DNA from: Bacilli bacterium
GTDB taxonomy: Bacteria; Bacillota_I; Bacilli_A; RF39; UBA660
Length of the DNA stretch: 64,000 nt
Reading direction: 5' to 3'
NCBI GenBank assembly: GCA_036653735.1
Contig: JAVVTI010000001.1
Location: 8,881-72,880, forward strand
Of this stretch, positions 3,621 through 26,173 are shown in pieces (within the stretch, counting starts at the first letter, position 1; every line of letters starts with the position of its first letter). The position numbers and the translations under genes were made by a program. The notes beneath the pieces are model-generated. The model did not search any database, had not been told where the DNA came from, and saw only the letters and a list, made by a program, of their open reading frames with translations.

Positions 3621-3623
3621 AGA

Positions 3624-7567: not shown

Positions 7568-7570
7568 TTT

Positions 7571-7762: not shown

Positions 7763-7766
7763 TCAT

Positions 7767-8240: not shown

Positions 8241-10149
8241 TTTTCATACCGGCATAAGAATACCACTGTCTTGTATTAAATTCTTTTTTCCTATCTTTTG
8301 AATATGAACGTACAGGCTCTAAAAATCCTACAATTCTTTGGTAAGTATCCATTACGTCACCACCACAAGTTGGACAAATATCTGTTCCCACAAATCCATG
8401 GTGGTTTGAACATTCATTAATTTTTGTGTTGAAAGCAAAATAAATAACTCCCGATTCTGCTATTTTATTTAACATTTCCCAAGCAACTTCTTCATTCGGG
8501 AAATTTTGTTCAATATTAATATGAGCAATTGCACCGCCTGAACATTTTTTATCTAAAATTGACGCAGTTCTAAGCTTTTCTTTAATCGTACAATTTTCTG
8601 ATAGTGGAATCCACTGGTTAGAATAAATGAATTTATCATTTTTTTCGTATAGCAAATTATCTTTTTGGCATAATATGACTGCGGCTCGTTCAGCTGGAAC
8701 ACTTTCAATATTTAATGAATATTTATCTGTAAAATTGTCTTTAATATTATTTAAAACATCAAATATATCACTAGCAAAATTCATACCATCTTCTGTATAA
8801 TATACATTTCCAAATTCATCTTTTTCAGTAAAACCAAAAGATTCAACAACTTCATACAATCCTAAAATTCCAATTGTATTATATTGCTTACTAAGTTCAA
8901 CACCTCCGTCACAATAATTTGGCAACAATCCTTTTTCAATATTTCTTGTAATAATTCCTCGAATAATATCTAATGTTTTACAACATAATATAGTTCTCTT
9001 TTTTAATAAAGCTAAATATTTATTTCTATCAAAATTTGTTTCATATCCAATTCTCATTAAATTGATAGTATTGACTTTAATTGAACCAATAGACAAAGCC
9101 GTACCACCGATAGAATTAATAAATCCGTCTAGTTTGTCGAACCCTGATAACAAACGACAACAATTTGATAATACACCAACATTATCACTCATAAAGAAGT
9201 TGCTATCATTCCATTTCATATTATGTTTAGAACACCATCTAGCAAAATCTTCATCTACAAATTTCCCACCTTTATATAATAAACTATACGTTAAAACAGG
9301 AAATGTAAATAAATTGCTACTTCTAATATCCGATACAACTTCCATAAACACTTTTTGGATTTCTATAATTTCGTCAATATAGTCTAATGCAAAAGTGCCA
9401 TCGGGAAATTCAGTTGAACCGAATAATGATTCTAAATATTCTCTGTCAAAAATTGAAACATTTACAAAAGCAGATTGGTCAATTCTAATAAATGGTTGAT
9501 TTAGTCTAAAAATAAACTTTTGAAAACTTTGTTTTAAGTAATAATCATTATTTTTGATTACATCGCCATTTTCACAATCTTTCTTCCAAAAATAAAAACT
9601 CCATAATAATACGTTTGGTAAACCACAAGCACCCGAACTTCGATTACTCATAAATGAAATAAATTCAATTACATCATCAAAGAATGTGGTTAAATGTTTT
9701 GGAGGTTGCTTATTATAATCATCTAAGAAGAATAACCCCTCTTTTGCTAATCGAGTTAAGTCGAACGCATAGCAATATGGTAAATAAGAACTTGTAGGTG
9801 CATCATGTAAATAAAACCCACCATTATATTCTGTTTCTAACCATTCCTTTGAAGTTTTTAACCCATACTTTTTCTTCATTTCATAAAATATTTTATTAAA
9901 CGCAAACAACTTATCTTCTGACTTTCCTTTTTCTGATATCATACTTCTGATATCTTTGTGTTTTGCGTTTGCGTTTGAATCAATCGTTGAATCAGCAACA
10001 TTCTTATCAACAAATCCTTCTATAAAATCTGAAAAATTTAATTGTGATTCATGGAAACCATTTAATATCTCAAAATCTTCCCCATACTTATTGCTAACTG
10101 TTTCAAAAGCTTTTTCAAAATCCTTGTTCATTTTAATTGGTATTAACAT
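8230..10149 (-). CDS. nrdD: Anaerobic (class III) ribonucleoside-triphosphate reductase
   Basis: 639 aa. C-terminal glycyl-radical region QRIVGFL and Zn-ribbon CPTCGGD, as typical of NrdD. Confidence 0.85.
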   Translation of the reverse strand: MLIPIKMNKDFEKAFETVSNKYGEDFEILNGFHESQLNFSDFIEGFVDKNVADSTIDSNANAKHKDIRSMISEKGKSEDKLFAFNKIFYEMKKKYGLKTSKEWLETEYNGGFYLHDAPTSSYLPYCYAFDLTRLAKEGLFFLDDYNKQPPKHLTTFFDDVIEFISFMSNRSSGACGLPNVLLWSFYFWKKDCENGDVIKNNDYYLKQSFQKFIFRLNQPFIRIDQSAFVNVSIFDREYLESLFGSTEFPDGTFALDYIDEIIEIQKVFMEVVSDIRSSNLFTFPVLTYSLLYKGGKFVDEDFARWCSKHNMKWNDSNFFMSDNVGVLSNCCRLLSGFDKLDGFINSIGGTALSIGSIKVNTINLMRIGYETNFDRNKYLALLKKRTILCCKTLDIIRGIITRNIEKGLLPNYCDGGVELSKQYNTIGILGLYEVVESFGFTEKDEFGNVYYTEDGMNFASDIFDVLNNIKDNFTDKYSLNIESVPAERAAVILCQKDNLLYEKNDKFIYSNQWIPLSENCTIKEKLRTASILDKKCSGGAIAHINIEQNFPNEEVAWEMLNKIAESGVIYFAFNTKINECSNHHGFVGTDICPTCGGDVMDTYQRIVGFLEPVRSYSKDRKKEFNTRQWYSYAGMKNDN

Positions 10150-10366
10150 TTTTTTTCCTTTCCATAATGTATTTTACAATTTCTGACCTGTCTAATATTT
10201 TTCCATCAATTTCAGCAAATGGGGCTGACATAATTTTATTCTCTTTTGCAACTTTCAAAATAATTTGTTCGTCTGTAATTAATTCAAAATCAATTGATTC
10301 TTTTTTTAGCATTTTTTCTAAAACAATACAACTTGGACAATGTGTACTATAAAATTTCATTTTCAT
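10133..10366 (-). CDS. Glutaredoxin-like protein (NrdH-like redoxin)
   Basis: MKMKFYSTHCPSC ... contains a CPSC thioredoxin-fold motif. AGGAGGTG RBS 5 nt before this ATG; the ORF-track start at 10429 is probably too long. First gene of the operon with nrdD and nrdG. Confidence 0.65.
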   Translation of the reverse strand: MKMKFYSTHCPSCIVLEKMLKKESIDFELITDEQIILKVAKENKIMSAPFAEIDGKILDRSEIVKYIMERKKNVNTN

Positions 10367-10400
10367 ATTTTCACCTCCTAACATTGTTATATCAAAACTA

Positions 10401-10429
10401 ATTATATCATAGCATTTTAATATTGTCAA
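10401..10429 (-). promoter_or_regulatory. Consensus sigma-A-type promoter, TTGACA-N17-TGaTATAAT, for the grx-nrdD-nrdG operon
   Basis: Minus strand reads TTGACA atattaaaatgctatga TATAAT. -35 at 10429-10424, -10 at 10406-10401, about 35 nt upstream of the RBS. Confidence 0.6.
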
Positions 10430-10564
10430 GATATTTATGTTATTTGTATTAGTCGATTTAAGCTACGTTTTAGTTATAGTGGCACAATTTATTACCTATG
10501 TACTTTAAGTATCTTAAAATGGCTAGAAATGCGTCACACAGTGTTCTAAATGCTATCTTCTAAC

Positions 10565-10747
10565 CTAACAAAACAACTTCTTAACTAAAACACCATATTT
10601 AATCAAAGAAAATAATAATATCAGTAAAATTAGAACAATTGGAATTATAATGGAAAACATTATAAATATAAATTTATTCATAAAATTATTCTTTTTCTTT
10701 TTTAACTTCATTTTTTTATAACCTCTTTTTGCTTCACAAATATGCAT
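10565..10747 (-). CDS. Small hydrophobic (membrane) protein
   Basis: 60 aa with a long hydrophobic stretch, IIIPIVLILLILLFSLI. Confidence 0.3.
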   Translation of the reverse strand: MHICEAKRGYKKMKLKKKKNNFMNKFIFIMFSIIIPIVLILLILLFSLIKYGVLVKKLFC

Positions 10748-10917
10748 TTTAGAAAATGTATTTCATCTTCTAAATCAAAACTTCCAAAACTTGTAAAATA
10801 ATCATTCTGAATTTCATATAAACCATAACATAAATTATCTTCTTTGCATTCATTTATTTCATAGGCTTTATCTACAGTAAATAGTTTGTTATCTGATTCT
10901 GTACAAATATATTTCAT
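10708..10917 (-). CDS. Hypothetical protein
   Basis: 69-aa ORF, co-oriented with the block. Confidence 0.35.
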   Translation of the reverse strand: MKYICTESDNKLFTVDKAYEINECKEDNLCYGLYEIQNDYFTSFGSFDLEDEIHFLKCIFVKQKEVIKK

Positions 10918-10933
10918 TTTTCCCCTTTATATA

Positions 10934-11500
10934 TTAATAAATAATTTCTTCCAAACTTCGTGGTGTATAATCCATATAATCTAACATACACCCAACGTTA
11001 TATAACTGTCCTTGATTATATCTATCTTTTGAATATGATTTTAAATCCTTTATCTGTTCAACAAAATATTGTATTAGCTGAGATTCATATCTTTCATGTA
11101 CATGACCATATAACATATAAGTATTTTTACTAGAACTATGATTATAAAACAAAATAGGATAATGACTCATTATGATTTTGTTCCCATTTTCTTTAATCAT
11201 TTTATAATCTGTTATTTCAATAAACTTCTCTGATAATTTTTTTGACATTTTAACAATATCATGATTTCCTCTAATTAAAACTTTCTTGCCATTCAATTTA
11301 TCCAAAATTTCAATCCATACTTTTTCATCTCGACTTAAACTAAAATCTCCTAAAATATAAACAGTATCTTTGTTATTAACTTTTTTATTCCAATTATTAA
11401 TTATTTTGGCTTCCATTTCTTGGACTGTCTGAAAAGGTCTGTTATCAAAACTTAAGATATTCTCATGGCGGAAATGTAAATCTGAAATAAAATAATTCAT
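10934..11500 (-). CDS. Calcineurin-like metallophosphoesterase
   Basis: Motifs DLHF, GDF, GNHD and GHVHE in canonical order. Confidence 0.7.
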   Translation of the reverse strand: MNYFISDLHFRHENILSFDNRPFQTVQEMEAKIINNWNKKVNNKDTVYILGDFSLSRDEKVWIEILDKLNGKKVLIRGNHDIVKMSKKLSEKFIEITDYKMIKENGNKIIMSHYPILFYNHSSSKNTYMLYGHVHERYESQLIQYFVEQIKDLKSYSKDRYNQGQLYNVGCMLDYMDYTPRSLEEIIY

Positions 11501-11519
11501 ATTCGCTCCTTCTTTTTTA

Positions 11520-12221
11520 TTATTTATAAAATTTGTGACCTACGCTATCTGTGAAAATGTATTCTAAATTATTTTCATGCCATTCACTTTCATTACTATA
11601 AAAATAAGTTGCACCACTAGTAGTATCACCTAGTTTGAATACATATTCCAAAGCAAATTTAGTATCTTCGGATATTTCATCTCTAAAATATTCAAACTGA
11701 TTTTTTTCTGTAATTACAGAAATAGGATTATTTGGAAATGTATTATTATCAAGTCTGTTTAGTATAACAGATGCAATATTACATTTTGCGCTAAAATTAG
11801 TTTGGTATGTTTCGGTTTCTATACATTTTTGCATATATAATATTTCTAAATTTGAATAAGAATTATATAGTTCTTTTGTTTCTATTATGTTGTCATATTT
11901 TTCAGATAAACTATTGTATTTTTTCAAGTATTCTATTTTATCAAAATTTTTTAATGGTTCTATTAAAGTTTTTTCATATTCAATTTGTGAACTTATAATT
12001 TCTGTGTTTGTTTTATTTAACAATTCATTTACAGATAATAATGACATATTTTCGTTTTCTAAATCAATTCTGTTATTTTCTAATACCATAATATTATTTG
12101 ATAATTTATTATTTGTATTATTTATATTATTTAATTCATCTAATAAATTTTGACATTTACAAGAAAAAAGTAATACAATAGAAAATTCTATCAGTATAGT
12201 TATTTCTTTAACTCTTTTCAT
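11520..12221 (-). CDS. Exported SleB-like cell-wall hydrolase: signal / lipobox-like N-terminus, coiled coil, Hydrolase_2 C-domain
   Basis: C-terminal NIASVILNRLDNNTFPNNPISVITEKNQFEY ... GATYFY resembles the SleB / CwlJ hydrolase domain. N-terminal hydrophobic segment ending LLFSCKC. Confidence 0.55.
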   Translation of the reverse strand: MKRVKEITILIEFSIVLLFSCKCQNLLDELNNINNTNNKLSNNIMVLENNRIDLENENMSLLSVNELLNKTNTEIISSQIEYEKTLIEPLKNFDKIEYLKKYNSLSEKYDNIIETKELYNSYSNLEILYMQKCIETETYQTNFSAKCNIASVILNRLDNNTFPNNPISVITEKNQFEYFRDEISEDTKFALEYVFKLGDTTSGATYFYSNESEWHENNLEYIFTDSVGHKFYK

Positions 12222-12269
12222 AAACTCCTCCTTTCTTTCTTCTTTTAATTTTTATTCACCCCCTTTAAA

Positions 12270-12297
12270 ATATTATATCAAATACTTTTAATCTTGT
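12270..12297 (-). promoter_or_regulatory. Consensus promoter, TTGACA-N16-TATAAT, upstream of the SleB-like gene
   Basis: Minus strand reads GTTGACA agattaaagtatttga TATAAT. Confidence 0.5.
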
Positions 12298-12548
12298 CAA
12301 CTTAATTATTTTTTTAGTTTATTATTACTGTAATTTTTTTTTATTTAAAATATAAATATTTTTTTACTTATTTAAAATTTACAATTTATTTTGGGGTAAC
12401 CATTAGAGTAATTACAATCTCCATCATGACTACTCTTTACCCTCTCACGTCCATTCTACCACTCAAAATATGCATCATAGGTAAGAATTAGGCATTCTAA
12501 CCCACTACCCCTACAATTGTTAGCCTAACCGCATATATATCTATAATT

Positions 12549-12767
12549 TTACCTATGCTCTCTAATTAGTTTATCAAGTGTTGGTCTGCTTATATTCAAT
12601 TCATGAGCCATATCAACTTTGCTTATCTCTCTATTCATATATTTATTGTAAAAGACGATACAAAACGTATCACATTGTGTAATTATGTAATTATAATTCT
12701 GCATTATCAAATTCATGATGTATAAATCTGTAAAATATAGATTCCGTTTCCGCTTTGTCATATACAA
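12549..12767 (-). CDS. Small HTH DNA-binding protein (C-terminal HTH); possible phage regulator
   Basis: C-terminal ISKVDMAHELNISRPTLDKLIREHR is helix-turn-helix-like. The N-terminal part looks like a low-complexity read-through. It overlaps ORF 12691..12876 out of frame. Confidence 0.35.
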   Translation of the reverse strand: MYMTKRKRNLYFTDLYIMNLIMQNYNYIITQCDTFCIVFYNKYMNREISKVDMAHELNISRPTLDKLIREHR

Positions 12768-12876
12768 ATACTAATTTTCCTTTGAATCCTATTTCAATTC
12801 TAATTGGCTGATATCCATATGTTAAATATACTTTTACTTGTTTAAAATTTACAATTTTGATTTCATTTTCTTTCAT
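12691..12876 (-). CDS. Hypothetical small protein; may be the N-terminal part of a frameshifted regulator
   Basis: 61-aa ORF overlapping the HTH ORF by 77 nt in another frame. Confidence 0.35.
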   Translation of the reverse strand: MKENEIKIVNFKQVKVYLTYGYQPIRIEIGFKGKLVFVYDKAETESIFYRFIHHEFDNAEL

Positions 12877-13083
12877 GTTTTTTGCTCCTATTCTAGCGTC
12901 TATATTCTAATATACATAAGTTGTAGGCTACCCTCTATAAAGTGTCTGCATCAGCTTGTAAACGTGCCTCACAAGGTTATAAACTTTAATTACAGATGAT
13001 ACAAATAATTATTTCATCTTCTTTCTTTTTAATTTTATCATTTATTGGTTCTTTTTATTTTTTAAATTTCACGTAACTAAAAG

Positions 13084-13095
13084 GAACAAGTGTTC
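13084..13095. promoter_or_regulatory. Candidate LexA (Cheo) box, GAACAAGTGTTC
   Basis: Perfect GAAC-N4-GTTC. Reverse complement of the 12-mer at 2680-2691. Lies in the leader region upstream of the regulator genes. Confidence 0.4.
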
Positions 13096-13300
13096 TTATA
13101 TTAACAAATAAATAATATTATTATTGCTAAAATAATTTTTTTAGTTTTATATTTTCCTTTATATTTTATATTTTTTTATAACAAATTCATAATCTAACCA
13201 CATAATTAACCATACATCTTGACAATTATATATTCTAGGTTTTAATTTTGAAAATTTCATATTTTACCTCCTTTTTACTTCCTTTCTATTATTTAATAAC

Positions 13301-13329
13301 ATTATATCACAACATTTTGATATTGTCAA
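13301..13329 (-). promoter_or_regulatory. Consensus promoter, TTGACA-N17-TGaTATAAT, near-identical to the nrd promoter
   Basis: Minus strand reads TTTGACA atatcaaaatgttgtga TATAAT. Followed by AAGGAGG and a 34-aa ORF starting MKFSKLKPR. Confidence 0.5.
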
Positions 13330-13671
13330 ATTATTAAATTATTATTAGTATTAATTATTAGACGATTATAGCCACTTTAGTGCTACAATGGACAATTTAC
13401 CATAGAACCATTTTAAACCGTCAAATCAGCCTAATAAAGATATCTATCAAAGTATTAATAAGCTTTATCTATGTCATTATAATATTTGTATGTAAATATT
13501 CAACTCGTTTTCTAATTAGACTATATGTATTTACTTATTTCTTATCCTCCTTAATCTGTTTGTTTATTTCATATAGTATAATTTAAACTGGGTTAGTATC
13601 ACGTAATTTTTTTTATATCACCATAATCCATTAAGTTACAAATCATTATATAATTATTTTCTAAAAATTCT

Positions 13672-13947
13672 TTAGTTTCTTTCTTTAATATCATAATTTA
13701 TCTCCTTCTTAGTGAAATTATATTCTTTGCATTCTATCCCATTATCATTTAACCATTTTGAAACCAATTGTCTATGACAAAATTTTGATGGTTTTTCATA
13801 ACACATCAAACAAATATTAATATTTTCTACATGAAGAATCCCAATTAAATCATATAACACATCTTTAACAGAAAGATTATTTAAGATATTTTCATTATAA
13901 TTTTTAATATAAGATTCTATGTCATTATTTTCTTTATATGACATCAA
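13672..13947 (-). CDS. Hypothetical protein, possibly a DUF488-like CHR-motif protein
   Basis: 91 aa with CYEKPSKFCHRQLVSKWL. First gene leftwards from the divergent control region. Confidence 0.4.
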   Translation of the reverse strand: MMSYKENNDIESYIKNYNENILNNLSVKDVLYDLIGILHVENINICLMCYEKPSKFCHRQLVSKWLNDNGIECKEYNFTKKEINYDIKERN

Positions 13948-14339
13948 TATTTTATAAGTCGGTGCTAATTTATACTACAATCCATTAAACCAATTCGGTG
14001 TTTTAACACATATAGATATTGGTATAAAATTTTTAGGTAGTTTATTCGCCATTGCAAAGTAACTTATGTAAATCATATTTGTTCCTCCTTTTATTTTTAT
14101 GCATATTTAATTATAATTATTTTTTATATATTTGACTATATAGTATCATTGTGAATATGATTAATCCCTCCTTGTTAATATTCATTTAATGTGGCTTAGT
14201 GATTAAATAACTTACTCTGATTTTTATTATTTCAATACCACCTTTATATATTATAACATATTATATTATATATGTCAAATTATATTATATAAATAATTAA
14301 TAAGTATATAATCATATATAATAATAATATATGCCAGTC

Positions 14340-14670
14340 GGCAGAATTAGGTTAGTAGGGAATGCTTACGGAATGGCTTACACCATTGCCTACACCATTG
14401 GGGGATTTTTGAGTATTTTTTATTCAAAATAATTAATAATTGATTGATATGTAAAAAGGATACATAATCATTTTCATATAGAGTATATAACTAATAAAAA
14501 ATGATTATGTATCCTTTTTACATTATGTGTATTATAATATAATATTATTAAAATTATATGGTATCATTTTATACAAGCTAATCATGTGTATTCAGAATCC
14601 CTTGACCTTAAAAATGGCGTAAGCCATTCAAATGCGTAAGCATTCTCTACTAACCCTACTAACCATTTTA
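14340..14670. repeat. Large imperfect palindrome (arms about 14350-14388 and 14601-14665) enclosing a perfect 25-bp inverted repeat, 14450-14474 / 14498-14522
   Basis: Inner IR TGTAAAAAGGATACATAATCATTTT matches its reverse complement AAAATGATTATGTATCCTTTTTACA exactly. Outer arms share GGTTAGTAGGG, AATGCTTACG and GAATGGCTTAC blocks. Confidence 0.7.
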
Positions 14671-14729
14671 CAATAATGAAAAATAGATTATATAGTATTT
14701 TTATATTATTATATATTATAATATATTAT

Positions 14730-15168
14730 TAAATAGTTATACTTAATAAATAGTTATATTTAATAATATATTATAACTAACTTATATACTTAATATAATA
14801 TATAATACTTGTAGTTTTAATTAAGTTCAAGTTCGCTGACGTAATAAAATAAATTATATGGGTATATCTCAATCCTGCTACGCAGTCTTTCGATATAAAC
14901 ACCCATATAATTTATTTTATTTTTGTCCTGAAATGTTTTTTCATTTTTATAAATAAGTACACTCAAATGCCACCTTACGGTGTCCTTTTCGTAGACGTAC
15001 TTATTTATAAAAATTAAAAAAATTCCAGTTTATTCCAGTTTATTATTATTATTATAATATATAGTTATATCTTATTATTATTATTATATGTTTATTATAA
15101 TATATTACATAGTTATATGAATTTATTTATTATTATAATAATATATAACTATTTAATATAACTATTTA
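14730..15168. repeat. Iteron-like 12-mer TAAATAGTTATA: two direct copies at 14730-14758, two inverted copies at 15144-15168, extra ATAGTTATA copies at 15061 and 15111. Region also holds 17-21-bp inverted repeats (14842-14920, 14944-15013) and tandem CCAGTTTATT x2
   Basis: Read directly from the sequence. The repeats flank palindromes in a 1.2-kb non-coding region between divergent operons. Confidence 0.6.
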
Positions 15169-15286
15169 AAGTAATTAAGATAAAAAAGATAAAAATAAAA
15201 TTATAATTTATATAATATTAAAATACCCGTTTTTTTAGATAAATTGACTCAAACCTATATAAATCAATGGGTACAGAGTTTTTGAA

Positions 15287-15334
15287 TATAAAGATACTCC
15301 TTAATATGTATTTATAATACAGAGTATCGTTATA
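15287..15334. repeat. Palindromic element, copy B (paralog of 3567-3620)
   Basis: AAAGATACTC cttaatatgtatttataataca GAGTATC. Same stem and a near-identical 22-nt loop. Sits about 85 bp upstream of the rightward consensus promoter. Confidence 0.7.
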
Positions 15335-15414
15335 TTCAGACAATTTAGCTAATTGTGTATGAAATACAAACAATTTAAAAAATAAAAAGAAATATGAATT
15401 ATTGTATTATATTA

Positions 15415-15443
15415 TTGACAAGAAAAATAAATTGTGATATAAT
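15415..15443 (+). promoter_or_regulatory. Consensus promoter, TTGACA-N17-TGaTATAAT, for the rightward operon
   Basis: TTGACA at 15415-15420, 17-nt spacer, TGaTATAAT with TATAAT at 15438-15443. An RBS and ATG follow at 15486. Confidence 0.6.
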
Positions 15444-15485
15444 AATTTTAAGTTTAATAATAGACAAAGAAAAGGAGAATAAAAT

Positions 15486-16418: not shown

Positions 16419-19133
16419 TTGGGTAAATATGGACTAGAGATAAAGAATATTAAAGCTGGAACTTTATATGGATATAATAATGGTGTTAGAACGAGATATG
16501 AAAGTAACCGAGCAATGTTTAATAATAGCTTGTTTAATAATTATATTTGTAAAAATGGATTGAGTGTATATAAAGATAAATCAACTAGGGATATTATTTG
16601 TTTAGATTTTGATTTCGGCTCATTCTCTTACGAAGAAGAAAAAGATAGATTAGAAGAAAAATTAAATTATGCTGATGATGAATCTAAACAACGTATTATA
16701 GATTTATTAGAAAAGATTGATATAAACAAAGATAAATATATTAAAAAGTCAAAAGAAGAAATTCGAGATGATTATTACGAAAATGGTGTGACAATAAGAT
16801 ATCAACAAAAAGACAAATTGGAAAATATTGTAAAAGAAGATGATATTGATTATAAAATGTTATATCGTAGTCCTGCTAAGGCAAAATTAGGGCAAGCAAT
16901 TTTTATTAATAAAAAATTATATAATAAGGCTTATAATTGGCTTACTATGGGATTAGGAAATAAAATGCCAAAGGATAATGCAAAAATTGTGGAAATGTCG
17001 GCATATGCACCTTTAACAACTAGTACCATTGTTGATACAATTCATATTCCGATTGAAGATATTGTAATATTAAAAGACCAAGAATCAATATTCAAAACTT
17101 TAGCGAATGTTGTAAAAGCTGAAATTGTAAATGGTAATAAAAAATGTGTTGTGGCGAAAGAAGAAACAAGTGTTGTAAATACAATGTGGGACGGAATGGC
17201 TTTGATTGAAGAATCTTATATTCCAAAAAATATTGAAATGAATGGAATGCTTTTAGTTCGTAATCATTTTTTTAAGTCATGTGGAGTTAAGTCTAAAATA
17301 CAATTATTCTTAAGAGATTGGTGTCGCAATAATAACATTGATTTTGATACATTTGAAATTGAGGATATGTTCGGAATTAAACATAAGGCAAAAGATATTA
17401 AAATGGTTACCACGGATAATTCAATTAAGTGGAAAAAGTTTTCTAATTTAATGGGAAATAATGATTTAGAAGCATATCAGTATTGGTGTAATAAAATTAA
17501 CGAGGACGGAAGTATTTTTGGAATTGTTAAAACAGACCATTCAAGTAAAATGGGGAATAGTCAACAAATGAGTTATCAGATGGTTAATACTTTGCCTTGC
17601 ACATTTGAAGAAGTCGGTGATATTGCCAAACAAAGTATTGATTATGTGGAATTAATTAAATCAGATGATGATGAATTTGAAAAGTTTCTTAGAGATAATA
17701 AAAACGAAATCAACCACTATGAAATGTTAGCAGATTTATATAAGCAAAATAAATTATTTGCAAAATGTGAATGGTTCAGAGTTGAAAAAAAGAAAATAAT
17801 TTTTGCTTACGTGGAAAGGTTAAGAAAAGGGAAAATATTTGTAAGAGGGGATAATTTAACAATTTTTGGGAATCCATATGGTTTGTTATTACATTGTGTC
17901 GGGGAAAATTATGAAAATGATAAAACTTTACAACAAGAAAATGATTGTATACAGTGTTATACTAAACAGTTTAAAGATGGTGAATATTTAAGTGCATTTA
18001 GAAATCCACATAATTCCCCTAATAATATTGCCTATTTACATAATGTTTATTCTGATGAAATGGAAAAATATTTTTCTTTCAGTGATAATATTATAGCTGT
18101 AAATTGTATCCATACGGATATACAAGATAGGGCAAACTCAATGGATTTTGATAGTGATTTTATGTTTGTTACGAACCAAAAAACAACAGTAAAATGTGCA
18201 AAGGAGTGCTATAAAGATTATCCAACTATTGTAAATGCTTTAAAAGAAAGTGGTGTGACTTATCATAATACTAAAAAATCTTATTCAGATATGGATAATA
18301 AATTTTCAAATTCTAGGATAGGAATAGGAGTTTCAAGTAATCAGGCACAATTGGCATTAACTTATTATTGGACTGAATTAAGCAAACAAAACCCAAATAA
18401 AGAAATTTTGAAAGAGTTAAACGATAATTTTGTAATTTTGTCAGTTTTAGCACAAGTGATTATTGATGGGTGTAAAAGAGAATATGAAATTGATGCATTA
18501 AAAGAAATTGAAAGAATACAAAATATGAGATGTATGCAGATTAAAAAAACTACAAAATTAAAATGCGGAAAATCAAAAACGATAAATTATAATTTACCAA
18601 ACTTTATGAAATACACGAAAGAAATTAAATATACAAAAAATGGAAAAGATATCGAGATAGAAAAAATTCAATCTGATAAAAAGAGGATAACCGATAGAAT
18701 AAATCCTAGTTTAATATGTCCTATGAATTATTTAGAAAAACATTTGGATTCAATTAAGCAGATGGATAAAACAGATTGTTTAGAAACGAAAGATTTTTTT
18801 ATTAAAATGAGTGGTGATGGGAATAGGAGACAAATATCAAATATAGTGCGTTTAATAAATGAATATGATAGTGCTACAAAACACCTTATTATTTCCGATA
18901 AAATGATTGAAGGAGAAATAGTCGGGAAAACGGAAGAATTAATTAACGAGGTTTCTAAAATAAAAATAGGGAATATTATTACTATTAATAGATTAATTGA
19001 AACCGCTTTAAATTTAGAATTAAAAAATAATAGTGGCAAAAATAACTCAAAGTATTGCCGAAAATTATTGAACATTTTATACCGAACAAACAAAGAAAAG
19101 TTCTTAATTTGTTTTAAAATAGGCGAAAATTGA
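16419..19133 (+). CDS. Large (904 aa) protein of unknown function with DxD (ICLDFDFGS) and DFDSD motifs
   Basis: Long uninterrupted ORF with an RBS. No family recognised with confidence. Confidence 0.6.
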   Translation: MGKYGLEIKNIKAGTLYGYNNGVRTRYESNRAMFNNSLFNNYICKNGLSVYKDKSTRDIICLDFDFGSFSYEEEKDRLEEKLNYADDESKQRIIDLLEKIDINKDKYIKKSKEEIRDDYYENGVTIRYQQKDKLENIVKEDDIDYKMLYRSPAKAKLGQAIFINKKLYNKAYNWLTMGLGNKMPKDNAKIVEMSAYAPLTTSTIVDTIHIPIEDIVILKDQESIFKTLANVVKAEIVNGNKKCVVAKEETSVVNTMWDGMALIEESYIPKNIEMNGMLLVRNHFFKSCGVKSKIQLFLRDWCRNNNIDFDTFEIEDMFGIKHKAKDIKMVTTDNSIKWKKFSNLMGNNDLEAYQYWCNKINEDGSIFGIVKTDHSSKMGNSQQMSYQMVNTLPCTFEEVGDIAKQSIDYVELIKSDDDEFEKFLRDNKNEINHYEMLADLYKQNKLFAKCEWFRVEKKKIIFAYVERLRKGKIFVRGDNLTIFGNPYGLLLHCVGENYENDKTLQQENDCIQCYTKQFKDGEYLSAFRNPHNSPNNIAYLHNVYSDEMEKYFSFSDNIIAVNCIHTDIQDRANSMDFDSDFMFVTNQKTTVKCAKECYKDYPTIVNALKESGVTYHNTKKSYSDMDNKFSNSRIGIGVSSNQAQLALTYYWTELSKQNPNKEILKELNDNFVILSVLAQVIIDGCKREYEIDALKEIERIQNMRCMQIKKTTKLKCGKSKTINYNLPNFMKYTKEIKYTKNGKDIEIEKIQSDKKRITDRINPSLICPMNYLEKHLDSIKQMDKTDCLETKDFFIKMSGDGNRRQISNIVRLINEYDSATKHLIISDKMIEGEIVGKTEELINEVSKIKIGNIITINRLIETALNLELKNNSGKNNSKYCRKLLNILYRTNKEKFLICFKIGEN

Positions 19134-20769: not shown

Positions 20770-22390
20770 GCCTATATAAGAAAGAGTTACCAAAACATTA
20801 TTGGACAGAGAATACTTTCTTTACAGATGGATATTTTGTATTAACAATTGGAGAAGTAAGTAGTAAAATGTTGAAAAGTATATAGAAAATCAAGGATAAA
20901 AGAGAAAATTAATAGCTAGGAAGGAAGTGATTGCAGATGCTAATAGCATATAAATACAGATTATATCCAAATAAGTCTCAACAAGAATATTTCTCAAAGT
21001 GTTTCGGTTGTGTGCGTTTCATCTATAATCATATGCTTTCAGATAAGATTGACTATTATAAAGAAACAAAACAAAAACTCAATAACACACCTGCTCAATA
21101 TAAAAAGGATTTTGAGTGGTTAAAAGAAGTAGATTCTCTCGCTCTTGCAAATACACAGATGAATTTACAAACTGCTTATAATAATTTCTTCAAACGTCCA
21201 GATGTGGGATTTCCGAAATTTAAAAGTAAGAAGAATAATCATTTGTCTTACACTACGAATAATCAAGGTGGGAATATCTATGTTTCAGACAGGTACATAA
21301 AACTTCCTAAAATTGGATTAGTTAAAGTTAAGAAACACAGAGATTTCAATGGTATTATCAAGTCTGTAACTGTTTCTAAGAATCCATCTGGTAAATATTT
21401 TGTATCAGTTCTAGTAGACCAAGAAGAAAAAGTGAAACTGCCTACTACTGATTCTAAAATTGGAATTGATTTAGGAATTAAAGAGTTCTGCATAACCTCC
21501 AATGGAGAAATGATTAAGAACCAAAAGTATCTTCGTAAATCTGAAAAGAGATTAAGTAAGTCGCAAAAGGATTTGTCTCGTGCAGTAAAAGGAAGTAATA
21601 ACAGAAATAAAGCAAGAATTAAAATTGCTAAAAAGCACGAAAAGATTGTGAATCAACGCAAAGATTTCTTAAACAAATTGTCTATAAGTATGATTCGTGA
21701 GAACCAAACAATTGCCTTAGAGACATTAAAAGTTAAGAATATGATGAGTAATCATAAACTAGCAAAATCTATAGCAGATGTATCTTGGAGTGAGTTTGTT
21801 CGGCAATTAGAGTACAAATCTAAATGGTATGGGCGAGAAATCGTAAAAATTGATACATGGTATCCAAGTTCACAAATTTGTTCTAACTGTGGGCATAAAG
21901 ATGGGAAAAAAGCATTGTCGATTAGAGAATGGACTTGCTCTAAATGTGGCACACATCACGAAAGAGATATAAACGCTGCAATAAATATATTAAACGAAGG
22001 ACTAAGGCAACTTATAGACTAAGGAGTAAGTAAGAAGTGTTGGAGCAACACGGATAGCCTGTGTAAACTTGTGCAGTTATGCATATTGAGCAGGAAACAA
22101 GCAAGTCTTTAGCTTGGTTGCGGTTCACATTAAATATTTCAGCCCTAATTGGTTAAAGGTTAAACCCAATGGTTATTGAATAGCACTTATCCACAATTAA
22201 AATAAATAGTGCTATAAACCACACGTTTTTACAGTATTGTGTGTTAAAAAATTAAAATTTACTGTTTGATTAAGTCTTTTACTGATGACAAAGGAAGAGT
22301 GAGATATCAATCCTAGTAAAATGATGGGATAGGATATCAAGATTTGTGGAGTTGGCTAAAGGATAAGTACCAATTGTCAAAAATCCTTAT
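20770..22390 (+). mobile_element. TnpB-only (IS1341-like) insertion element; boundaries approximate; structured right-end / omega-RNA region at 22023-22390
   Basis: TnpB ORF. A 370-bp GC-richer non-coding right end. The 9-mer GTCTTTAGC occurs near both flanks (20763, 22089). A 44-aa ORF (20627-20761) ends abruptly at the left flank. Confidence 0.4.
20931..22022 (+). CDS. tnpB: IS200/IS605-family accessory protein TnpB (OrfB, RuvC-like plus Zn finger)
   Basis: N-terminal [15 protein letters not shown] ..., a central RuvC-like region, and C-terminal CSNCGH ... CSKCG Zn finger. 363 aa. No tnpA adjacent. Confidence 0.9.
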
Positions 22391-22392
22391 AA

Positions 22393-22463: not shown

Positions 22464-22488
22464 CTAAATAAAAGAAAGGACAAATAAT

Positions 22489-23367: not shown

Positions 23368-24312
23368 GTGATATTTATCGAAGAACAAAAAATAACTAAA
23401 GAAGGAGTTAGGATAAAAAAAGAGAGAGTTTCTCATTGTATTGATTGTATGAGAGATTATCCCATAAGTAATTTTTATCCATCAAAAGGTTTTTTTTTAG
23501 GAAATGCAAAAGTAATACCTTATTGTAAAAGTTGTTGTGAACAAATATTGAGAGAAAATTTAAAACGTTGTGGTACTTTAGAATCTGCATTATGGATAAC
23601 TTGTTCTAAATTAGATGTGCCCTTTATAAAACGCGTCTTTGAATCAACTGTTAAATATAAAAATAATTATCAAGAAACAAGTGGAAAAGATGATTCAGAC
23701 TATAATATTTTTGGTTATTACTATATGTTTTTATGGGGAACTAAAAGTATGCAAAAGAAAGGGGAAGAATGGAATGATTTTAAAGCTACTGATGTTGCCA
23801 TGGGAGAAATACAAGTTTTAAAAAAAAGTGAAGATGCTTTAAAATTAGAAATGGAAAAGTTTTCTCTTGATTGGGGTCATCGAGCAGATATTGAAGATTA
23901 TCAATATTTAGAATATGAATTTGATAGATTGACAAAAGATAAACCATTAAAACCACAAGAAGAAACATTATATAGAAAACTTTGTATTATTGAATTAGTA
24001 ATGCGTAAAAAAGAGGAAACAAATGAATCTACCAATGTAGAGCAATCTCAAATGTTAAATTTAATGAAAACTTTAAAAATAGATAATTTTTCAGAAGATA
24101 AGGACTTGTCTTTAGTAGAGAGAATGTTAGAAAATCAAATAGCAATTATTGAAAAAGAAAAACCATGTTTTCATTATAAAGATTTAAAAAAAAATGCTGA
24201 TTTTGTAGGAAGAGGGAGATATTGGGAAGACCACGTTATTAGACCTCTAAGAAATTTATTATGTAATACTAAAGAATATAAAATAAAAAGAGATAACCAA
24301 GAGGAAATATGA
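23368..24312 (+). CDS. Zn-finger protein immediately upstream of terL; putative terminase small subunit by position
   Basis: N-terminal CIDC ... CKSCC Zn ribbon. 314 aa. Translationally coupled to the large terminase. Confidence 0.3.
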   Translation: MIFIEEQKITKEGVRIKKERVSHCIDCMRDYPISNFYPSKGFFLGNAKVIPYCKSCCEQILRENLKRCGTLESALWITCSKLDVPFIKRVFESTVKYKNNYQETSGKDDSDYNIFGYYYMFLWGTKSMQKKGEEWNDFKATDVAMGEIQVLKKSEDALKLEMEKFSLDWGHRADIEDYQYLEYEFDRLTKDKPLKPQEETLYRKLCIIELVMRKKEETNESTNVEQSQMLNLMKTLKIDNFSEDKDLSLVERMLENQIAIIEKEKPCFHYKDLKKNADFVGRGRYWEDHVIRPLRNLLCNTKEYKIKRDNQEEI

Positions 24313-24313
24313 T

Positions 24314-26173
24314 ATGGTTACTTTAAAAGAATTAATTGAAGCTAGACGAAAAAAAGAAAATAAACGTAAAAAACCCTTAACGAAAGAACAACATGAAGAA
24401 CAAATCATTGATTGGTGTGATTTTTATAGGAAAAACTGGGATATTTATGCAGAACAAGATTTAGGAATAACAGCTCTTCACCCATTTCAAAGTATTGTAT
24501 TATATTTAGCTGGAATATCACAAGTGTTTTATTTTATGTGTAGCAGAGGAATGTCAAAATCGTTCCTATCTGCTTTAATTTCTTTTATTATATGTTTATT
24601 ATATCCAAATTCAGAAATAGTAATAACAGCAACAACCATGAAAACAGCAAAAAAAATGGTTAAAAATAAAATGCAAAAAGAATTATGTGGAGATTATTCA
24701 CCTAAATTAAAATATCTATATGAACATGATTTAATACATTTTACGATAGGTGATGAAGATATAAGAGTTGATTTTAAAATGAATAATTCATGGATATTAG
24801 TTTTACCGGAAACAGATAGTTCAAGAGGTGAACGTGTAACTGGTCTTATATTTGAAGAATATCGACAATCAAAACCAAGTATTGTAAATTCAGTGTTTAT
24901 CCCAATGAGAAGAGCGAGAAGAGCCGCATATCTATTTAAAGAAGAATTTAAAGAAGATAAAAGACTAATTGAAAATGCGCGGATTATTTATCTTACATCA
25001 ACAGGTTATAAATTTGAACATTTTTGGGAAACTTGGAAAACAGTAATAGATAAAATGTTTGACAAAAATAGTAAAACAAAATATATTGGATTTGCGGGTG
25101 ACATTGTTACATCAGTGTATCATAATCTAGTCACAGAAGAGGACTTTGAATTAGTAAAGAATGACCAATCCATTTCTGAAATGGAAATAGAAATGGAATA
25201 TTATAATGTTCCACAAGGCGAAATAGAAGGTTCTTATTATTCTATGAAACAGTTTAAAGACAATAGTGTTATAGAAAATGGATTTATTCCCCCTACGTAT
25301 GAAGAATTTGTAGAAAAATATGACAGAGGAAATATTCCGTATTTTAGGGAAAAAAAAGATGATGAAATAAGAATTATTTATGTTGATTTTGCATTTTCAG
25401 ATACTGTAATAAAGAATCAAGATAATGATAATACTGTAATTGGTTGTATGAGTGGATATCCAAACGAAGAAAGAGTAAGAATATTAAGAAATGTGGACTA
25501 TATGGAAACATACAGTGGAGGAGATAAAGAGAAGTCTTTAAAGAGGATTAGAGAATTATTCTATCTTTATTGTGCTGATTATTTTATTTATGATAACTTA
25601 AACGGAGGGCAGGATAGATTTGTTGATTTATCTAAGCCATATTATCATGAAGAACTAGGTATTGAAATGAATGGATTTGGTATAAGTACTGAAACTAATA
25701 TTACAGATGGTTTCTGTGAAGAAAATAAAGTTGCTAATTTATCAAATGGAGTGATAGATTCTAATTCAATACCAGTGTCAATTCCAGTTGTAGGGAGTTC
25801 AGAGCGAAATAATAATTATCATATTGTCATGAAAAATTCATTGAAAAATAATACAATTCGATTTCTTATGGACGAAATAGAATTAAAGAAAAAATTATTA
25901 AATGATAAAGAATTTATGTTTATGGATAGTTATTCAAAATCTAGGAGATTAATTGGACATGTTCAAATAGACTTAATGATTAATGAAGCCATAAAATTAG
26001 AAAAAAAAATAGTTAAGGGTTATATTAAATTAGAAGAACCTAGGACTGGAACAAAAGATAGAATAGTTGCCACTGAATATGGTAATTATTTTTTCTATTT
26101 AAAAGAGTTAGAAATGGTAAAAAAAGAACAAGAAAATACAACGGATTTAGAAGATATACAATTAGTATATTAA
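24314..26173 (+). CDS. terL: Terminase large subunit
   Basis: 619 aa. N-terminal ATPase with a Walker-A-like CSRGMSKSF. C-terminal nuclease-like region (IYVDFAFSDT). Position is before the portal. Confidence 0.7.
   Translation: MVTLKELIEARRKKENKRKKPLTKEQHEEQIIDWCDFYRKNWDIYAEQDLGITALHPFQSIVLYLAGISQVFYFMCSRGMSKSFLSALISFIICLLYPNSEIVITATTMKTAKKMVKNKMQKELCGDYSPKLKYLYEHDLIHFTIGDEDIRVDFKMNNSWILVLPETDSSRGERVTGLIFEEYRQSKPSIVNSVFIPMRRARRAAYLFKEEFKEDKRLIENARIIYLTSTGYKFEHFWETWKTVIDKMFDKNSKTKYIGFAGDIVTSVYHNLVTEEDFELVKNDQSISEMEIEMEYYNVPQGEIEGSYYSMKQFKDNSVIENGFIPPTYEEFVEKYDRGNIPYFREKKDDEIRIIYVDFAFSDTVIKNQDNDNTVIGCMSGYPNEERVRILRNVDYMETYSGGDKEKSLKRIRELFYLYCADYFIYDNLNGGQDRFVDLSKPYYHEELGIEMNGFGISTETNITDGFCEENKVANLSNGVIDSNSIPVSIPVVGSSERNNNYHIVMKNSLKNNTIRFLMDEIELKKKLLNDKEFMFMDSYSKSRRLIGHVQIDLMINEAIKLEKKIVKGYIKLEEPRTGTKDRIVATEYGNYFFYLKELEMVKKEQENTTDLEDIQLVY

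What the first reader, a model, noticed from the sequence alone, without database searches (positions are those of the whole stretch)
14100..15240. 1.2-kb non-coding region with nested palindromes and iterons: candidate replication origin / packaging or regulatory hub
Two divergently transcribed gene blocks are separated by a region containing the following. (i) A roughly 330-bp imperfect palindrome at 14340-14670 whose centre is a perfect 25-bp IR (14450-14474 / 14498-14522). (ii) Further IRs of 17-21 bp, 14842-14862 / 14900-14920 and 14944-14960 / 14997-15013, the latter enclosing a CACC-ttac-GGTG hairpin. (iii) A 12-mer TAAATAGTTATA in two direct copies (14730, 14747) and two inverted copies (15144, 15157), with extra ATAGTTATA copies at 15061 and 15111. 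(iv) Tandem CCAGTTTATT x2. Iterons plus AT-rich DNA and large palindromes suggest an origin of replication, a cos / pac-like site or a multi-operator control region. A possible plus-strand promoter (TTGACT-N18-TATGAT, 14131-14160) points into the palindrome, so a structured ncRNA is also possible.
Basis: seen in the sequence. Interest (0 to 1): 0.6.

Follow-up and report, generated by a model that had tools for sequence, protein, structure and literature searches.

The report
Palindrome-rich packaging/control gap of SPβ-like phage
This 1.4-kb gene-free stretch sits between two outward-facing promoters of an uncultured SPβ-like phage, is packed with real palindromes and short repeats, and occupies the spot where phage SPβ starts packaging its DNA, so it is most likely this phage's packaging-start and control region, though a replication origin is not excluded.

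Summary
The gap 14077-15485 has no gene. It holds four perfect hairpin-type inverted repeats (26, 21, 20 and 18 bp arms; 0.01 expected), 43-nt inverted arms around a ~225-nt AT-rich block, and eight TAGTTATA cores (0.57 expected).

The phage is SPβ-like: YonO-like RNA polymerase, HU-like protein, YonJ, YonG, terminase, portal and YonD homologues follow in SPβ order. In SPβ the equivalent gap holds the mapped packaging start (pac): a 251-nt inverted-repeat-rich block between a G-rich and a C-rich tract, followed by clustered short repeats and the polymerase-operon promoter. The window shows the same order, polarity and scale.

Four contig ends from three sibling assemblies fall within 51 nt on the G-rich arm.

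My best reading is a pac-plus-promoter hub (about 0.45). An origin of replication is the main rival (about 0.25): there are AT-rich tracts and a skew minimum, but no DnaA boxes and no initiator gene nearby.

No sequence homology to any known pac site, no close relatives and no reads are available, so function stays inferred. MITE, invertible switch, known RNA families and hidden genes were tested and rejected.

The parts
14077..14249 (-). 5' leader of the leftward (early, minus-strand) operon, ending in an AGGAGG ribosome-binding site before the ATG at 14076
   Evidence: Sequence; ORF list; genes called on sibling contigs
14132..14161 (+). It lies inside the leftward leader and points at the palindrome
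   Evidence: consensus match only
14250..14278 (-). P_left: perfect sigma-70/sigma-A-type promoter (TTGACA-N17-TATAAT with TG extension) firing leftward into the early block
   Evidence: 12/12, one of only two in the region; sequence
14279..14335 (.). Extremely AT-rich tract (about 4% GC), easily melted DNA
   Evidence: GC per 50 nt
14336..14410 (.). G-rich left arm (28% G, 17% C). The IR core 14350-14387 carries GGTTAGTAG, GAATGCTTACG and GAATGGCTTAC units. Four contig termini from three sibling assemblies fall here (14336, 14363, 14367, 14386). Proposed cut/recognition side of the pac block
   Evidence: arm; contig termini
14411..14589 (.). AT-rich central block (83% A+T) between the arms, counterpart of the 251-nt SPβ pac block
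14449..14523 (.). Perfect 26-bp inverted repeat with 23-nt loop. The loop holds one TAGTTATA core (14486, minus orientation)
   Evidence: (z -7.9)
14590..14665 (.). C-rich right arm (12% G, 28% C). IR core 14613-14655 plus a second CTACTAACC unit (14656-14664). Contains AATGGC-GTAA-GCCATT and AATGC-GTAA-GCATT mini-palindromes
14714..14779 (.). Repeat cluster 1: TATTATAATATA, then TAAATAGTTATA x2 direct (14730, 14747) and one inverted TAGTTATA (14772), framed by a perfect 20-bp IR (14716-14735 / 14757-14776)
14843..14921 (.). Hairpin E: perfect 21-bp AT-rich IR, with a 37-nt GC-richer loop carrying a CTGC-TAC-GCAG mini-hairpin
   Evidence: z -8.7 / -8.6
14936..15021 (.). Hairpin F: 25-nt IR (one mismatch), with a 36-nt loop carrying the CACC-TTAC-GGTG mini-hairpin (14971-14982). 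Same architecture as E
   Evidence: z -6.4 / -7.4
15025..15044 (+). CCAGTTTATT x2 tandem (two copies only; not enriched elsewhere)
15050..15168 (.). Repeat cluster 2 in 6-12% GC DNA: TATTATAATATA+TAGTTATA (15050-15069), TATTATAATATATTACATAGTTATA (15093-15117), and two inverted TAAATAGTTATA (15144, 15157)
15227..15392 (+). Duplicated element, paralogue of window 3511-3675. It has a 17-nt IR (15283-15299 / 15322-15338, 22-nt spacer) whose arms differ from the other copy by compensatory changes. Candidate repeated operator upstream of P_right
   Evidence: (E 1.5e-23)
15415..15443 (+). P_right: perfect sigma-70/sigma-A-type promoter (TTGACA-N17-TATAAT with TG extension) for the AntA-KilAC-RNAP operon
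   Evidence: RBS and ATG at 15486
16419..19133 (+). YonO-like single-subunit two-barrel RNA polymerase (context gene that anchors the synteny with SPβ)
   Evidence: source name 'RNA dependent RNA polymerase'; profile vs YonO E 2.7e-4, 420 columns, D576/D578/D580 aligned with DNDGD
23368..24312 (+). YonG homologue immediately upstream of the large terminase. Inferred candidate pac-recognition (small-terminase-like) protein
   Evidence: E 1e-14 vs SPβ YonG; YonG_N mark. The small-terminase role is inference only
24314..26173 (+). Large terminase (YonF position), the enzyme expected to cut at pac
   Evidence: Position after the YonG homologue and before the portal; 54-57% identity to proteins in IMG/VR viral contigs that carry no annotation; SPβ yonF annotation. 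No direct family hit here, so the terminase identity is inferred from position

Best explanation
The region is the cis-acting hub at the early/late boundary of an SPβ-like phage. It is the counterpart of the SPβ yonR-yonP gap.

Shown: two consensus host-type promoters fire outward from its edges. Between them lies DNA that is not transcribed into protein but is built from recognition and structure elements.

Inferred: the palindromic element 14336-14665 (G-rich arm, AT-rich block with a 26-bp perfect hairpin, C-rich arm) is the packaging-initiation (pac) block. The phage terminase, guided by a recognition subunit (possibly the YonG homologue), assembles on repeated sites here. These sites would be the arm units and/or the TAGTTATA/TAAATAGTTATA clusters to the right. 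The phage's HU-like protein and the intrinsically bendable AT tracts may help.

Inferred: the terminase makes the first cut at or near the G-rich arm. It then threads concatemeric DNA rightward, through the block toward the RNA-polymerase operon and the structural genes, until the head is full.

Inferred: the duplicated symmetric element just upstream of P_right would be a regulator site.
For: 1. Synteny. The window's order is gap > AntA > KilAC > YonO-like RNAP > HU-like > YonJ_N > YonG homologue > terminase > portal > YonD_N. This is collinear with SPβ yonP-yonO-yonN-yonJ-yonG-yonF-yonE-yonD. SPβ's pac/opening point lies in the 953-bp divergent gap just upstream of yonP.

2. Architecture. 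The SPβ pac fragment maps to L034 9532-9782. It is a 251-nt IR-rich block exactly between a G-rich tract (22% G, 8% C) and a C-rich tract (8% G, 27% C) when oriented with the RNAP operon to the right. In PMBT24 the PhageTerm pac lies at the edge of a C-free G-rich tract, followed by a 306-nt block and a G-free C-rich tract. The window has G-rich arm (28/17), a 179-nt block, then C-rich arm (12/28), in the same orientation relative to the RNAP operon.

3. Short repeats. SPβ has a short repeat in both orientations (ATCGTAA x5; 0.12 expected) between the block and the yonP promoter. The window has TAGTTATA x8 (0.57 expected) between the block and P_right.

4. Contig ends. Four contig ends from three independent sibling assemblies fall at 14336-14386 on the G-rich arm. 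One left-side contig crosses the 4%-GC tract without breaking.

5. Both mapped relatives are pac/headful phages, and in SPβ the same gap also holds a promoter and a repressor site.

6. The palindromes are perfect Watson-Crick and strand-symmetric, as expected of DNA-level sites.
Against: - There are no reads, so no terminus was measured.
- Contig ends are indirect evidence. Two other contigs of this phage also end at one shared point (3687) for unrelated reasons. Left-side and right-side ends overlap by up to 51 nt, which a single blunt cut does not explain.
- There is no sequence similarity to SPβ or PMBT24 pac DNA beyond AT-only words.
- The G/C asymmetry of the window's arms is modest and short (75 nt, against 180-370 nt). 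Because the arms are inverted repeats, matching polarity is only a 1-in-2 event.
- Relatives at ~60% RNAP identity have differently built gaps without such palindromes. In PMBT24 the pac lies 9.6 kb from the RNAP gene, so the position is not strictly conserved.
- The PMBT24 packaging direction relative to the tracts is ambiguous.
- SPβ's replication origin is unknown, so the SPβ gap could also hold an origin.
Confidence: 0.45

Rival explanations
1. Origin of replication. A phage initiator binds the TAAATAGTTATA/TAGTTATA repeats. The 4-12% GC tracts melt. The palindromes extrude or serve as priming or loading sites. Replication then proceeds bidirectionally, co-oriented with the two gene blocks. 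This could coexist with pac.
For: - Repeats flanked by extreme AT tracts.
- The cumulative GC-skew minimum is at ~14-15 kb, and the skew maximum near 55-56 kb lies roughly opposite.
- The location between divergent early and late promoters resembles the lactococcal phage c2 origin (my own knowledge, not tested here).
- SPβ's origin is unmapped, so nothing places it elsewhere.
Against: - The skew switch coincides exactly with the switch in gene orientation, so it is not independent evidence.
- No DnaA box lies in or near the region.
- No initiator-like gene lies within ±5 kb. Polymerase and helicase genes lie >40 kb away.
- The repeats are 12-mers at 13- and 17-nt spacing in mixed orientation, unlike classic phased 17-22-bp iterons.
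Confidence: 0.25
2. Purely regulatory and/or RNA-level element. The hairpins are processing sites, terminators or small RNAs transcribed from weak internal promoters (for example from 14132-14161 rightward). The short repeats are operators for a phage regulator that controls P_left and P_right.
For: - A promoter-like site points into the palindrome.
- GC-richer islands stand out in AT-rich DNA.
- C-GTAA-G (GNRA-type) mini-hairpins occur only here.
- A duplicated symmetric element with compensatory changes lies upstream of P_right.
- SPβ's gap carries an MrpR operator.
Against: - No Rfam family matches, even at E<=5, apart from two chance miRNA hits.
- No terminator-like site was found.
- The stems are perfect, without G-U pairs, and fold equally well on both strands.
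- The repeat clusters lie 250-450 nt from either strong promoter, too far for simple operators.
- There are no relatives with which to test covariation.
Confidence: 0.15
3. Invertible DNA switch or mobile element. The 43-nt arms would be recombination sites of an inverton, or the terminal inverted repeats of a MITE inserted in the gap. The contig breaks would reflect mixed orientations or presence/absence variants.
For: Inverted arms flank ~225 nt. Contig ends cluster at one arm in three assemblies.
Against: - At least three read-through assemblies (the window's source, the NCBI contig and SRR25820361) show the same orientation, and no assembly shows an inverted one.
- The break positions do not match the crossover-predicted branch points.
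- The arms are only 84% identical and contain an indel.
- No recombinase gene lies within ±5 kb.
- The arm core is absent from the rest of the window, from IMG/VR and from 185,579 genomes. The single hit in 241 million metagenome records is a chance match in a high-GC bacterium.
- There is no target-site duplication.
Confidence: 0.05

Closest known systems
pac / genome-opening region of Bacillus phage SPβ and relatives (phi3T, Goe11-14), in the yonR-yonP intergenic gap (Fink & Zahler 1982; Kohm et al., bioRxiv 10.1101/2021.11.22.469490)
   Same: - Divergent gene-free gap directly upstream of the operon that carries the YonO-type RNA polymerase, in a collinear late-gene block.
- IR-rich block of ~180-250 nt between a G-rich and a C-rich flank, in the same orientation relative to the RNAP operon.
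- A short repeat in both orientations between the block and the operon promoter.
- Promoter(s), and in SPβ a repressor site, in the same gap.
   Different: - No sequence similarity.
- The window's flanks are short (75 nt) true inverted repeats, not long (180-370 nt) compositionally skewed tracts.
- Much stronger and more numerous perfect palindromes (fold z -11 against -2).
- Gap of 1.4 kb against 0.95 kb.
- Physical ends have not been measured here.
pac region of Enterocloster phage PMBT24 (PhageTerm-mapped; PMC11035940)
   Same: The phage carries the same RNAP family. Its pac lies in a long gene-poor tract, at the boundary between a C-free G-rich tract and a ~300-nt balanced block followed by a G-free C-rich tract. 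TATAATATA-type words are enriched.
   Different: The pac is 9.6 kb from the RNAP gene and is not at the divergent junction. The tracts are far more extreme (45% G with 3% C; 36% C with 1% G). Palindromy is weak. Packaging direction relative to the tracts is uncertain.
SPP1 and P1 pac sites (from my own knowledge of the literature; not tested here)
   Same: They share the concept of two clusters of short repeats bound by the terminase recognition subunit, flanking or adjoining the cleavage zone, with bent or AT-rich DNA and host or phage HU/IHF-type help. Packaging is headful.
   Different: The SPP1 and P1 pac sites lie within or next to the terminase small-subunit gene and span ~160-270 bp. 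Here the site would be ~9 kb from the terminase genes, inside a 1.1-kb non-coding hub. The SPβ review reports no sequence similarity between SPβ and SPP1 pac.
Non-coding origin of lactococcal phage c2 between divergent early and late promoters (from my own knowledge; not tested here)
   Same: Gene-free, AT-rich, repeat- and hairpin-rich DNA between divergent promoters, with a promoter reading into structured non-coding DNA.
   Different: No homology. There is no evidence here for an origin transcript or for replication initiation.

Membership tests
SPβ-type pac / genome-opening region | Lies in the divergent gene-free gap immediately upstream of the yonP-yonO (RNAP) operon of a collinear SPβ-like late block | tested here: met
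   Gene order and homology: YonG E 1e-14; YonO profile E 2.7e-4 with the catalytic Asp triad aligned; HU-like; YonJ_N, YonG_N and YonD_N marks; SPβ map
SPβ-type pac / genome-opening region | Physical start of packaged DNA maps there (read-start peak, coverage step or restriction mapping of virion DNA) | tested here: inconclusive
   No reads are available. Indirect evidence only: four contig termini from three sibling assemblies within 14336-14386. Coincident contig ends also occur at 3687
SPβ-type pac / genome-opening region | IR-rich ~250-nt block bounded by a G-rich and a C-rich tract (a feature I derived here from the two mapped cases; it is not an established definition) | tested here: met
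   28/17% G/C arm, 179-nt block, 12/28% arm, in the same orientation as SPβ. But the arms are short and the asymmetry is modest
SPβ-type pac / genome-opening region | Sequence similarity to the conserved SPβ/phi3T/Goe pac fragment | tested here: not met
   No blastn hit to the SPβ gap at E<=0.01, and only AT-only words against PMBT24. No phage-database DNA match
Iteron-type replication origin | Several phased direct repeats (iterons) next to an AT-rich unwinding element | tested here: inconclusive
   12-mer x4 exact plus 4 core copies, at 13/17-nt spacing in mixed orientation. AT tracts of 4-12% GC are present
Iteron-type replication origin | Cognate initiator gene adjacent, or host DnaA boxes | tested here: not met
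   No initiator-like family in the ten flanking proteins. DnaA boxes: 0 in the region, 9 in the window against 12.5 expected. Polymerase and helicase lie at 57-64 kb
Iteron-type replication origin | Replication initiates there (marker frequency, 2D gels, autonomous replication) | not testable with these tools
   The GC-skew minimum at ~14-15 kb is confounded by gene orientation
MITE / IS-derived element | Multiple dispersed copies and a target-site duplication | tested here: not met
   The arm core is unique in the window, absent from IMG/VR and from GTDB genomes, with one chance hit in metagenomes. No TSD
Invertible promoter switch (inverton) | Both orientations present in sequence data, and a nearby recombinase | tested here: not met
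   All read-through assemblies that could be examined (at least three) show one orientation. No recombinase within ±5 kb. The rest of the genome outside the window was not seen
Known structured RNA family (Rfam 15) | Covariance-model match at or near the gathering score | tested here: not met
   only two sub-threshold miRNA-model hits (E 0.4 and 1.2)

The most novel reading that the evidence does not exclude
Phages that encode a YonO-type RNA polymerase (SPβ, PMBT24 and many uncultured gut relatives) may share a previously undescribed packaging-site architecture. It would consist of an inverted-repeat-rich block of ~200-300 nt, with the cut at its edge, bracketed by mirror-image strand-asymmetric flanks (G-rich toward the block on each strand). 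The window's phage would carry a compact, fully palindromic version in which the flanks have become true inverted repeats. If so, terminase recognition in this large, poorly understood phage group would rest on symmetric, possibly structure-forming (cruciform or G-rich) DNA and not on a simple sequence motif.
Probability: 0.15. Interest if true: 0.6.

Novelty: new variant of a known kind. Interest (0 to 1): 0.42.

Why it matters
SPβ-like phages with YonO-type polymerases are abundant in gut Firmicutes. Their packaging signal and replication origin are essentially uncharacterised: the SPβ pac is only mapped, and its origin is unknown.

A compact, sharply delimited palindromic candidate gives a concrete target for packaging or transduction assays and for terminus mapping.

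The comparison made here also suggests a shared layout of the two experimentally mapped pac sites: a G-rich flank, an IR-rich block and a C-rich flank. This could help locate pac sites, and so predict genome ends and transduction potential, in uncultured relatives.

If the region instead proves to be the origin, it would be the first origin assigned in this phage group.

Tried and rejected
1. Sequence conservation. There is no DNA match in 50,697 phage records. The closest RNAP relatives are only 58-62% identical. Their gene-poor gaps share no sequence and lack such palindromes. The sibling contigs are 99.9-100% identical and uninformative. Covariation tests were therefore impossible.

2. MITE or dispersed repeat: rejected.

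3. Inverton: no alternative orientation and no recombinase nearby.

4. Known RNA families: none. No intrinsic terminators.

5. Hidden genes. There is no ORF with an RBS. The 33-aa hydrophobic ORF 14331-14432 lacks a Shine-Dalgarno sequence and its 'copy' in the right arm is out of frame. Code 4 adds nothing, and TGA is used as a stop codon.

6. AT-dropout as the cause of the contig breaks. This is rejected for SRR25820362, because the left contig crosses the 4%-GC tract. The arms share no exact 31-mer, so a k-mer repeat is not the cause either.

7. Shared motif words between the window's arms and the G-rich tracts of relatives: nothing beyond what composition explains.

8. The paired 12-mer in other viruses. 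The seven IMG/VR hits are minisatellites in AT-rich giant-virus-like contigs, or unrelated contexts (downstream of a CI-like repressor; between structural genes) with no common neighbouring protein. I treated these as coincidence.

9. RNAP gene near the record start in Enterocloster and Thomasclavelia phages as evidence for termini. This is not reliable: CB457P1 starts at or inside the RNAP gene, and only PMBT24's start is documented as pac.

10. The 92.9-kb contig carrying this RNAP could not be retrieved. The genome's full length and its lysogeny genes therefore remain unseen.
Full report
WHAT IS THERE

The window is a phage-like genome segment (about 27% GC). A minus-strand block (1-14076) encodes anaerobic ribonucleotide reductase NrdD/NrdG, a phosphoesterase, a cell-wall hydrolase and a DUF488 protein. 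A plus-strand block starts at 15486. Between them, 14077-15485 carries no gene. No ORF there has a ribosome-binding site. Neither NCBI's nor the collection's gene caller placed a gene there on identical sibling contigs. Reading TGA as sense (code 4) adds nothing, and TGA ends several large ORFs.

- The central perfect inverted repeat (IR) is 26 bp (14449-14474 / 14498-14523).
- The '330-bp palindrome' is a pair of imperfect arms. The core is 14350-14387 against 14613-14655, 84% identical over 43 nt with a 5-nt indel (E=9e-11). The arms enclose a ~225-nt AT-rich block.
- Two further long hairpins are present: E (14843-14921) and F (14936-15021).
- There is an extra perfect 20-bp IR (14716-14776).
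- There are eight TAGTTATA cores, four of them as the exact 12-mer TAAATAGTTATA.

IS IT MORE THAN CHANCE?

Yes. I compared the region with 1000 dinucleotide-preserving shuffles of itself, which controls for its extreme AT content:

| Feature | Observed | Shuffle mean |
|---|---|---|
| Perfect IRs with arms >=16 nt | 4 | 0.01 (never more than 1) |
| TAGTTATA | 8 | 0.57 |
| TAAATAGTTATA | 4 | 0.018 |
| TATTATAATATA | 5 | 0.14 |

Ten of the 22 local IRs of the 64-kb window lie within 0.8 kb here. The big palindrome folds with z about -11 to -12, and hairpins E and F and the central hairpin with z -6 to -9, on either strand. Composition alternates between tracts of 4-16% GC and islands of 28-44% GC.

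The scan finds only two perfect 12/12 sigma-70-type promoters with a TG extension, and they face outward. P_left runs 14278->14250 into the early block. P_right runs 15415->15443 into the AntA operon. The 1.1-kb core therefore lies outside both operons.

The right end of the gap (15227-15392) is a paralogue of 3511-3675 (E 1.5e-23). Its 17-nt symmetric arms differ between the two copies by compensatory changes. This suggests a repeated regulator site.

WHAT PHAGE IS THIS?

The 904-aa protein downstream belongs to a large family that one source names 'RNA dependent RNA polymerase'. A profile of the family aligns with SPβ YonO over 420 collinear columns (E 2.7e-4), with D576/D578/D580 placed on YonO's DNDGD motif.

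The gene order after the gap is AntA, KilAC, RNAP, HU-like protein, YonJ_N, an inserted TnpB and tRNA-Gln, a YonG homologue (E 1e-14), terminase, portal and YonD_N. This is collinear with SPβ's yonO-yonN-yonJ-yonG-yonF-yonE-yonD block.

The host label of the source MAG is 'Bacilli bacterium'. The nearest relatives anywhere are only about 60% identical in the RNAP.

THE KEY COMPARISON

In SPβ, a 953-bp divergent gene-free gap separates yonP-yonO from yonR. Restriction mapping and read analysis place the genome-opening point and packaging start (pac) in that gap.

The authors' supplement gives the ~250-bp pac fragment, predicts multiple inverted repeats in it, and states that packaging starts at its position 251 and runs toward yonP. 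I mapped the fragment to L034 9532-9782.

It lies exactly between a C-poor, G-rich tract and a G-poor, C-rich tract. Oriented with the RNAP operon to the right, SPβ reads:
- G-rich flank (22% G, 8% C)
- cut
- 251-nt balanced IR-rich block
- C-rich flank (8% G, 27% C), which contains a short repeat in both orientations (ATCGTAA x5; 0.12 expected)
- yonP promoter, which also carries an MrpR operator
- yonP-yonO

PMBT24 is a distant relative with the same RNAP family and a PhageTerm-mapped pac. It shows a more extreme version: a 374-nt tract with 45% G and 3% C, then pac, then a 306-nt balanced block, then a 296-nt tract with 1% G and 36% C. SPβ's other long gap, which holds the YonO promoter, lacks this asymmetry.

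The window, in the same orientation, reads:
- G-rich arm (28% G, 17% C)
- 179-nt AT-rich block with the 26-bp hairpin
- C-rich arm (12% G, 28% C)
- TAGTTATA clusters and hairpins E and F
- duplicated symmetric element
- P_right
- AntA ... RNAP

Order, polarity and scale agree with SPβ. Sequence does not.

INDIRECT PHYSICAL EVIDENCE

Independent k=31 assemblies of the same phage from sibling samples break on the G-rich arm:
- SRR25820362: the left contig ends at 14363 and the right contig begins at 14367.
- SRR25820366: the right contig begins at 14336.
- SRR25820372: the left contig ends at 14386.

The left contig of SRR25820362 crosses the 4%-GC tract, so AT dropout is not the cause. The arms share no exact 31-mer, and no sequence variant lies nearby. 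Given break densities of one per 2-14 kb, I estimate three coincident breaks within 51 nt to have a probability of roughly 5e-4. This is my own rough calculation.

A local discontinuity or coverage dip at the arm, such as a packaging cut, would explain the pattern. Caveats apply. Two other contigs share an end at 3687. Left-side and right-side ends overlap by up to 51 nt. Palindrome-related library artefacts cannot be excluded.

MOST LIKELY MECHANISM

Shown: divergent consensus promoters bracket a non-coding, repeat- and palindrome-dense core, at the SPβ pac position.

Inferred: the palindromic element is the pac block. The terminase, with a recognition partner (the YonG homologue is the positional candidate) and DNA-bending help from the HU-like protein and the AT tracts, binds the repeated sites. 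It cuts at or near the G-rich arm and packages rightward by the headful mechanism. I put this at about 0.45.

RIVALS

- Origin of replication (about 0.25). AT tracts, repeats and the cumulative skew minimum fit. But the skew switch coincides with the switch in gene orientation. There are no DnaA boxes and no initiator gene nearby, and the replication genes lie more than 40 kb away. SPβ's origin is unknown, so a combined pac and ori hub is possible.
- A purely regulatory or RNA reading (about 0.15). It lacks Rfam or terminator support, and the stems look like DNA-level palindromes.
- Inverton or MITE (about 0.05). The tests failed: one orientation only, no recombinase, no other copies in IMG/VR, 185,579 genomes or 241 million metagenome records apart from one chance hit, and no target-site duplication.

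COMPARISON WITH WHAT IS KNOWN

The region works most like the SPβ-type pac/promoter gap. Membership is supported by position and layout. It is not supported by sequence, and the defining property, measured DNA ends, could not be tested.

It differs from SPβ and PMBT24 in three ways. Its flanks are short true inverted repeats in place of long skewed tracts. Its palindromy is far stronger. Its AT content is higher. I therefore file it as a new variant of a known kind. It is moderately interesting in itself, and somewhat more so for the shared tract-block-tract layout of mapped pac sites that the comparison exposed.

Noticed in passing
L034 9161-9960 (SPβ NC_001884 ~64160-64959); PMBT24 OQ326496.2 ~99590-99962 and 1-602; also L022 5917-7870, L025 3400-4300, L001 800-2300, L002 300-1450: The two experimentally mapped pac sites (SPβ, PMBT24) lie at the edge of a ~250-310-nt balanced, IR-rich block. 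The block is bracketed by mirror-image strand-asymmetric tracts, extreme in PMBT24 (262 nt with <=3 C, up to 49% G, then 296 nt with <=3 G). Unmapped relatives show the same G-rich-then-C-rich order in their long gene-poor gaps. SPβ's YonO-promoter gap does not. I found no description of this in the papers read.
   Followed up: partly
window 15227-15392 and 3511-3675: A 133-165-nt duplicated intergenic element (78% identity, E 1.5e-23) with a 48-nt near-identical core. Its 17-nt inverted arms (22-nt spacer) differ between the copies at two positions per arm in a compensatory way. It may be a repeated operator (compare SPBRE/MrpR in SPβ) or a conserved hairpin.
   Followed up: partly
L001 1219-2579 vs L002 394-1795: Two IMG/VR relatives share their gene-poor, G-poor tract at 92% identity over 1.4 kb, while the genes between the tract and the RNAP gene are unrelated. 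The non-coding tract behaves as a conserved module.
   Followed up: partly
L034 9239-9463 (SPβ yonP-yonR gap): ATCGTAA occurs five times (three direct, two inverted) within 225 nt, against five times in the other 39 kb (0.12 expected). It lies between the pac block and the yonP promoter. Its function is unknown to me.
   Followed up: partly
window 14613-14644, 14971-14982, 14372-14387: Mini-palindromes with a constant GTAA/TTAC centre but different GC-containing stems (AATGGC-GTAA-GCCATT, AATGC-GTAA-GCATT, CACC-TTAC-GGTG, and the imperfect AATGG-CTTACA-CCATT) occur only in this region. The four other TTAC/GTAA hairpins in the window have AT-rich stems with no or only one G-C pair.
   Followed up: partly
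window 3687: Contigs from two different samples (L009 from SRR25820366 and L010 from SRR25820368) both end at exactly this coordinate, 24 nt to the right of the 3.5-kb copy of the duplicated element. The cause was not determined. It shows that coincident contig ends are not unique to the palindrome arm.
   Followed up: no
window 20931-22464: A TnpB (IS605 OrfB / Cas12f-like) gene and a tRNA-Gln (anticodon TTG) are inserted between the YonJ_N-like and YonG-like genes of the otherwise SPβ-collinear late block.
   Followed up: no
window 16419-19133: The YonO-like RNA polymerase family is very large in metagenomes (1821 proteins at E<=1e-20 among the candidates scored) and carries no Pfam domain. 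Its metal-binding motif here is DFDSD, against DNDGD in YonO.
   Followed up: partly
window 11777: The window differs from the NCBI MAG contig JAVXKW010000004.1 and from several sibling contigs by a single T/C difference. The window therefore comes from a near-identical but not identical record. A 92.9-kb contig with the same RNAP exists but could not be retrieved.
   Followed up: no
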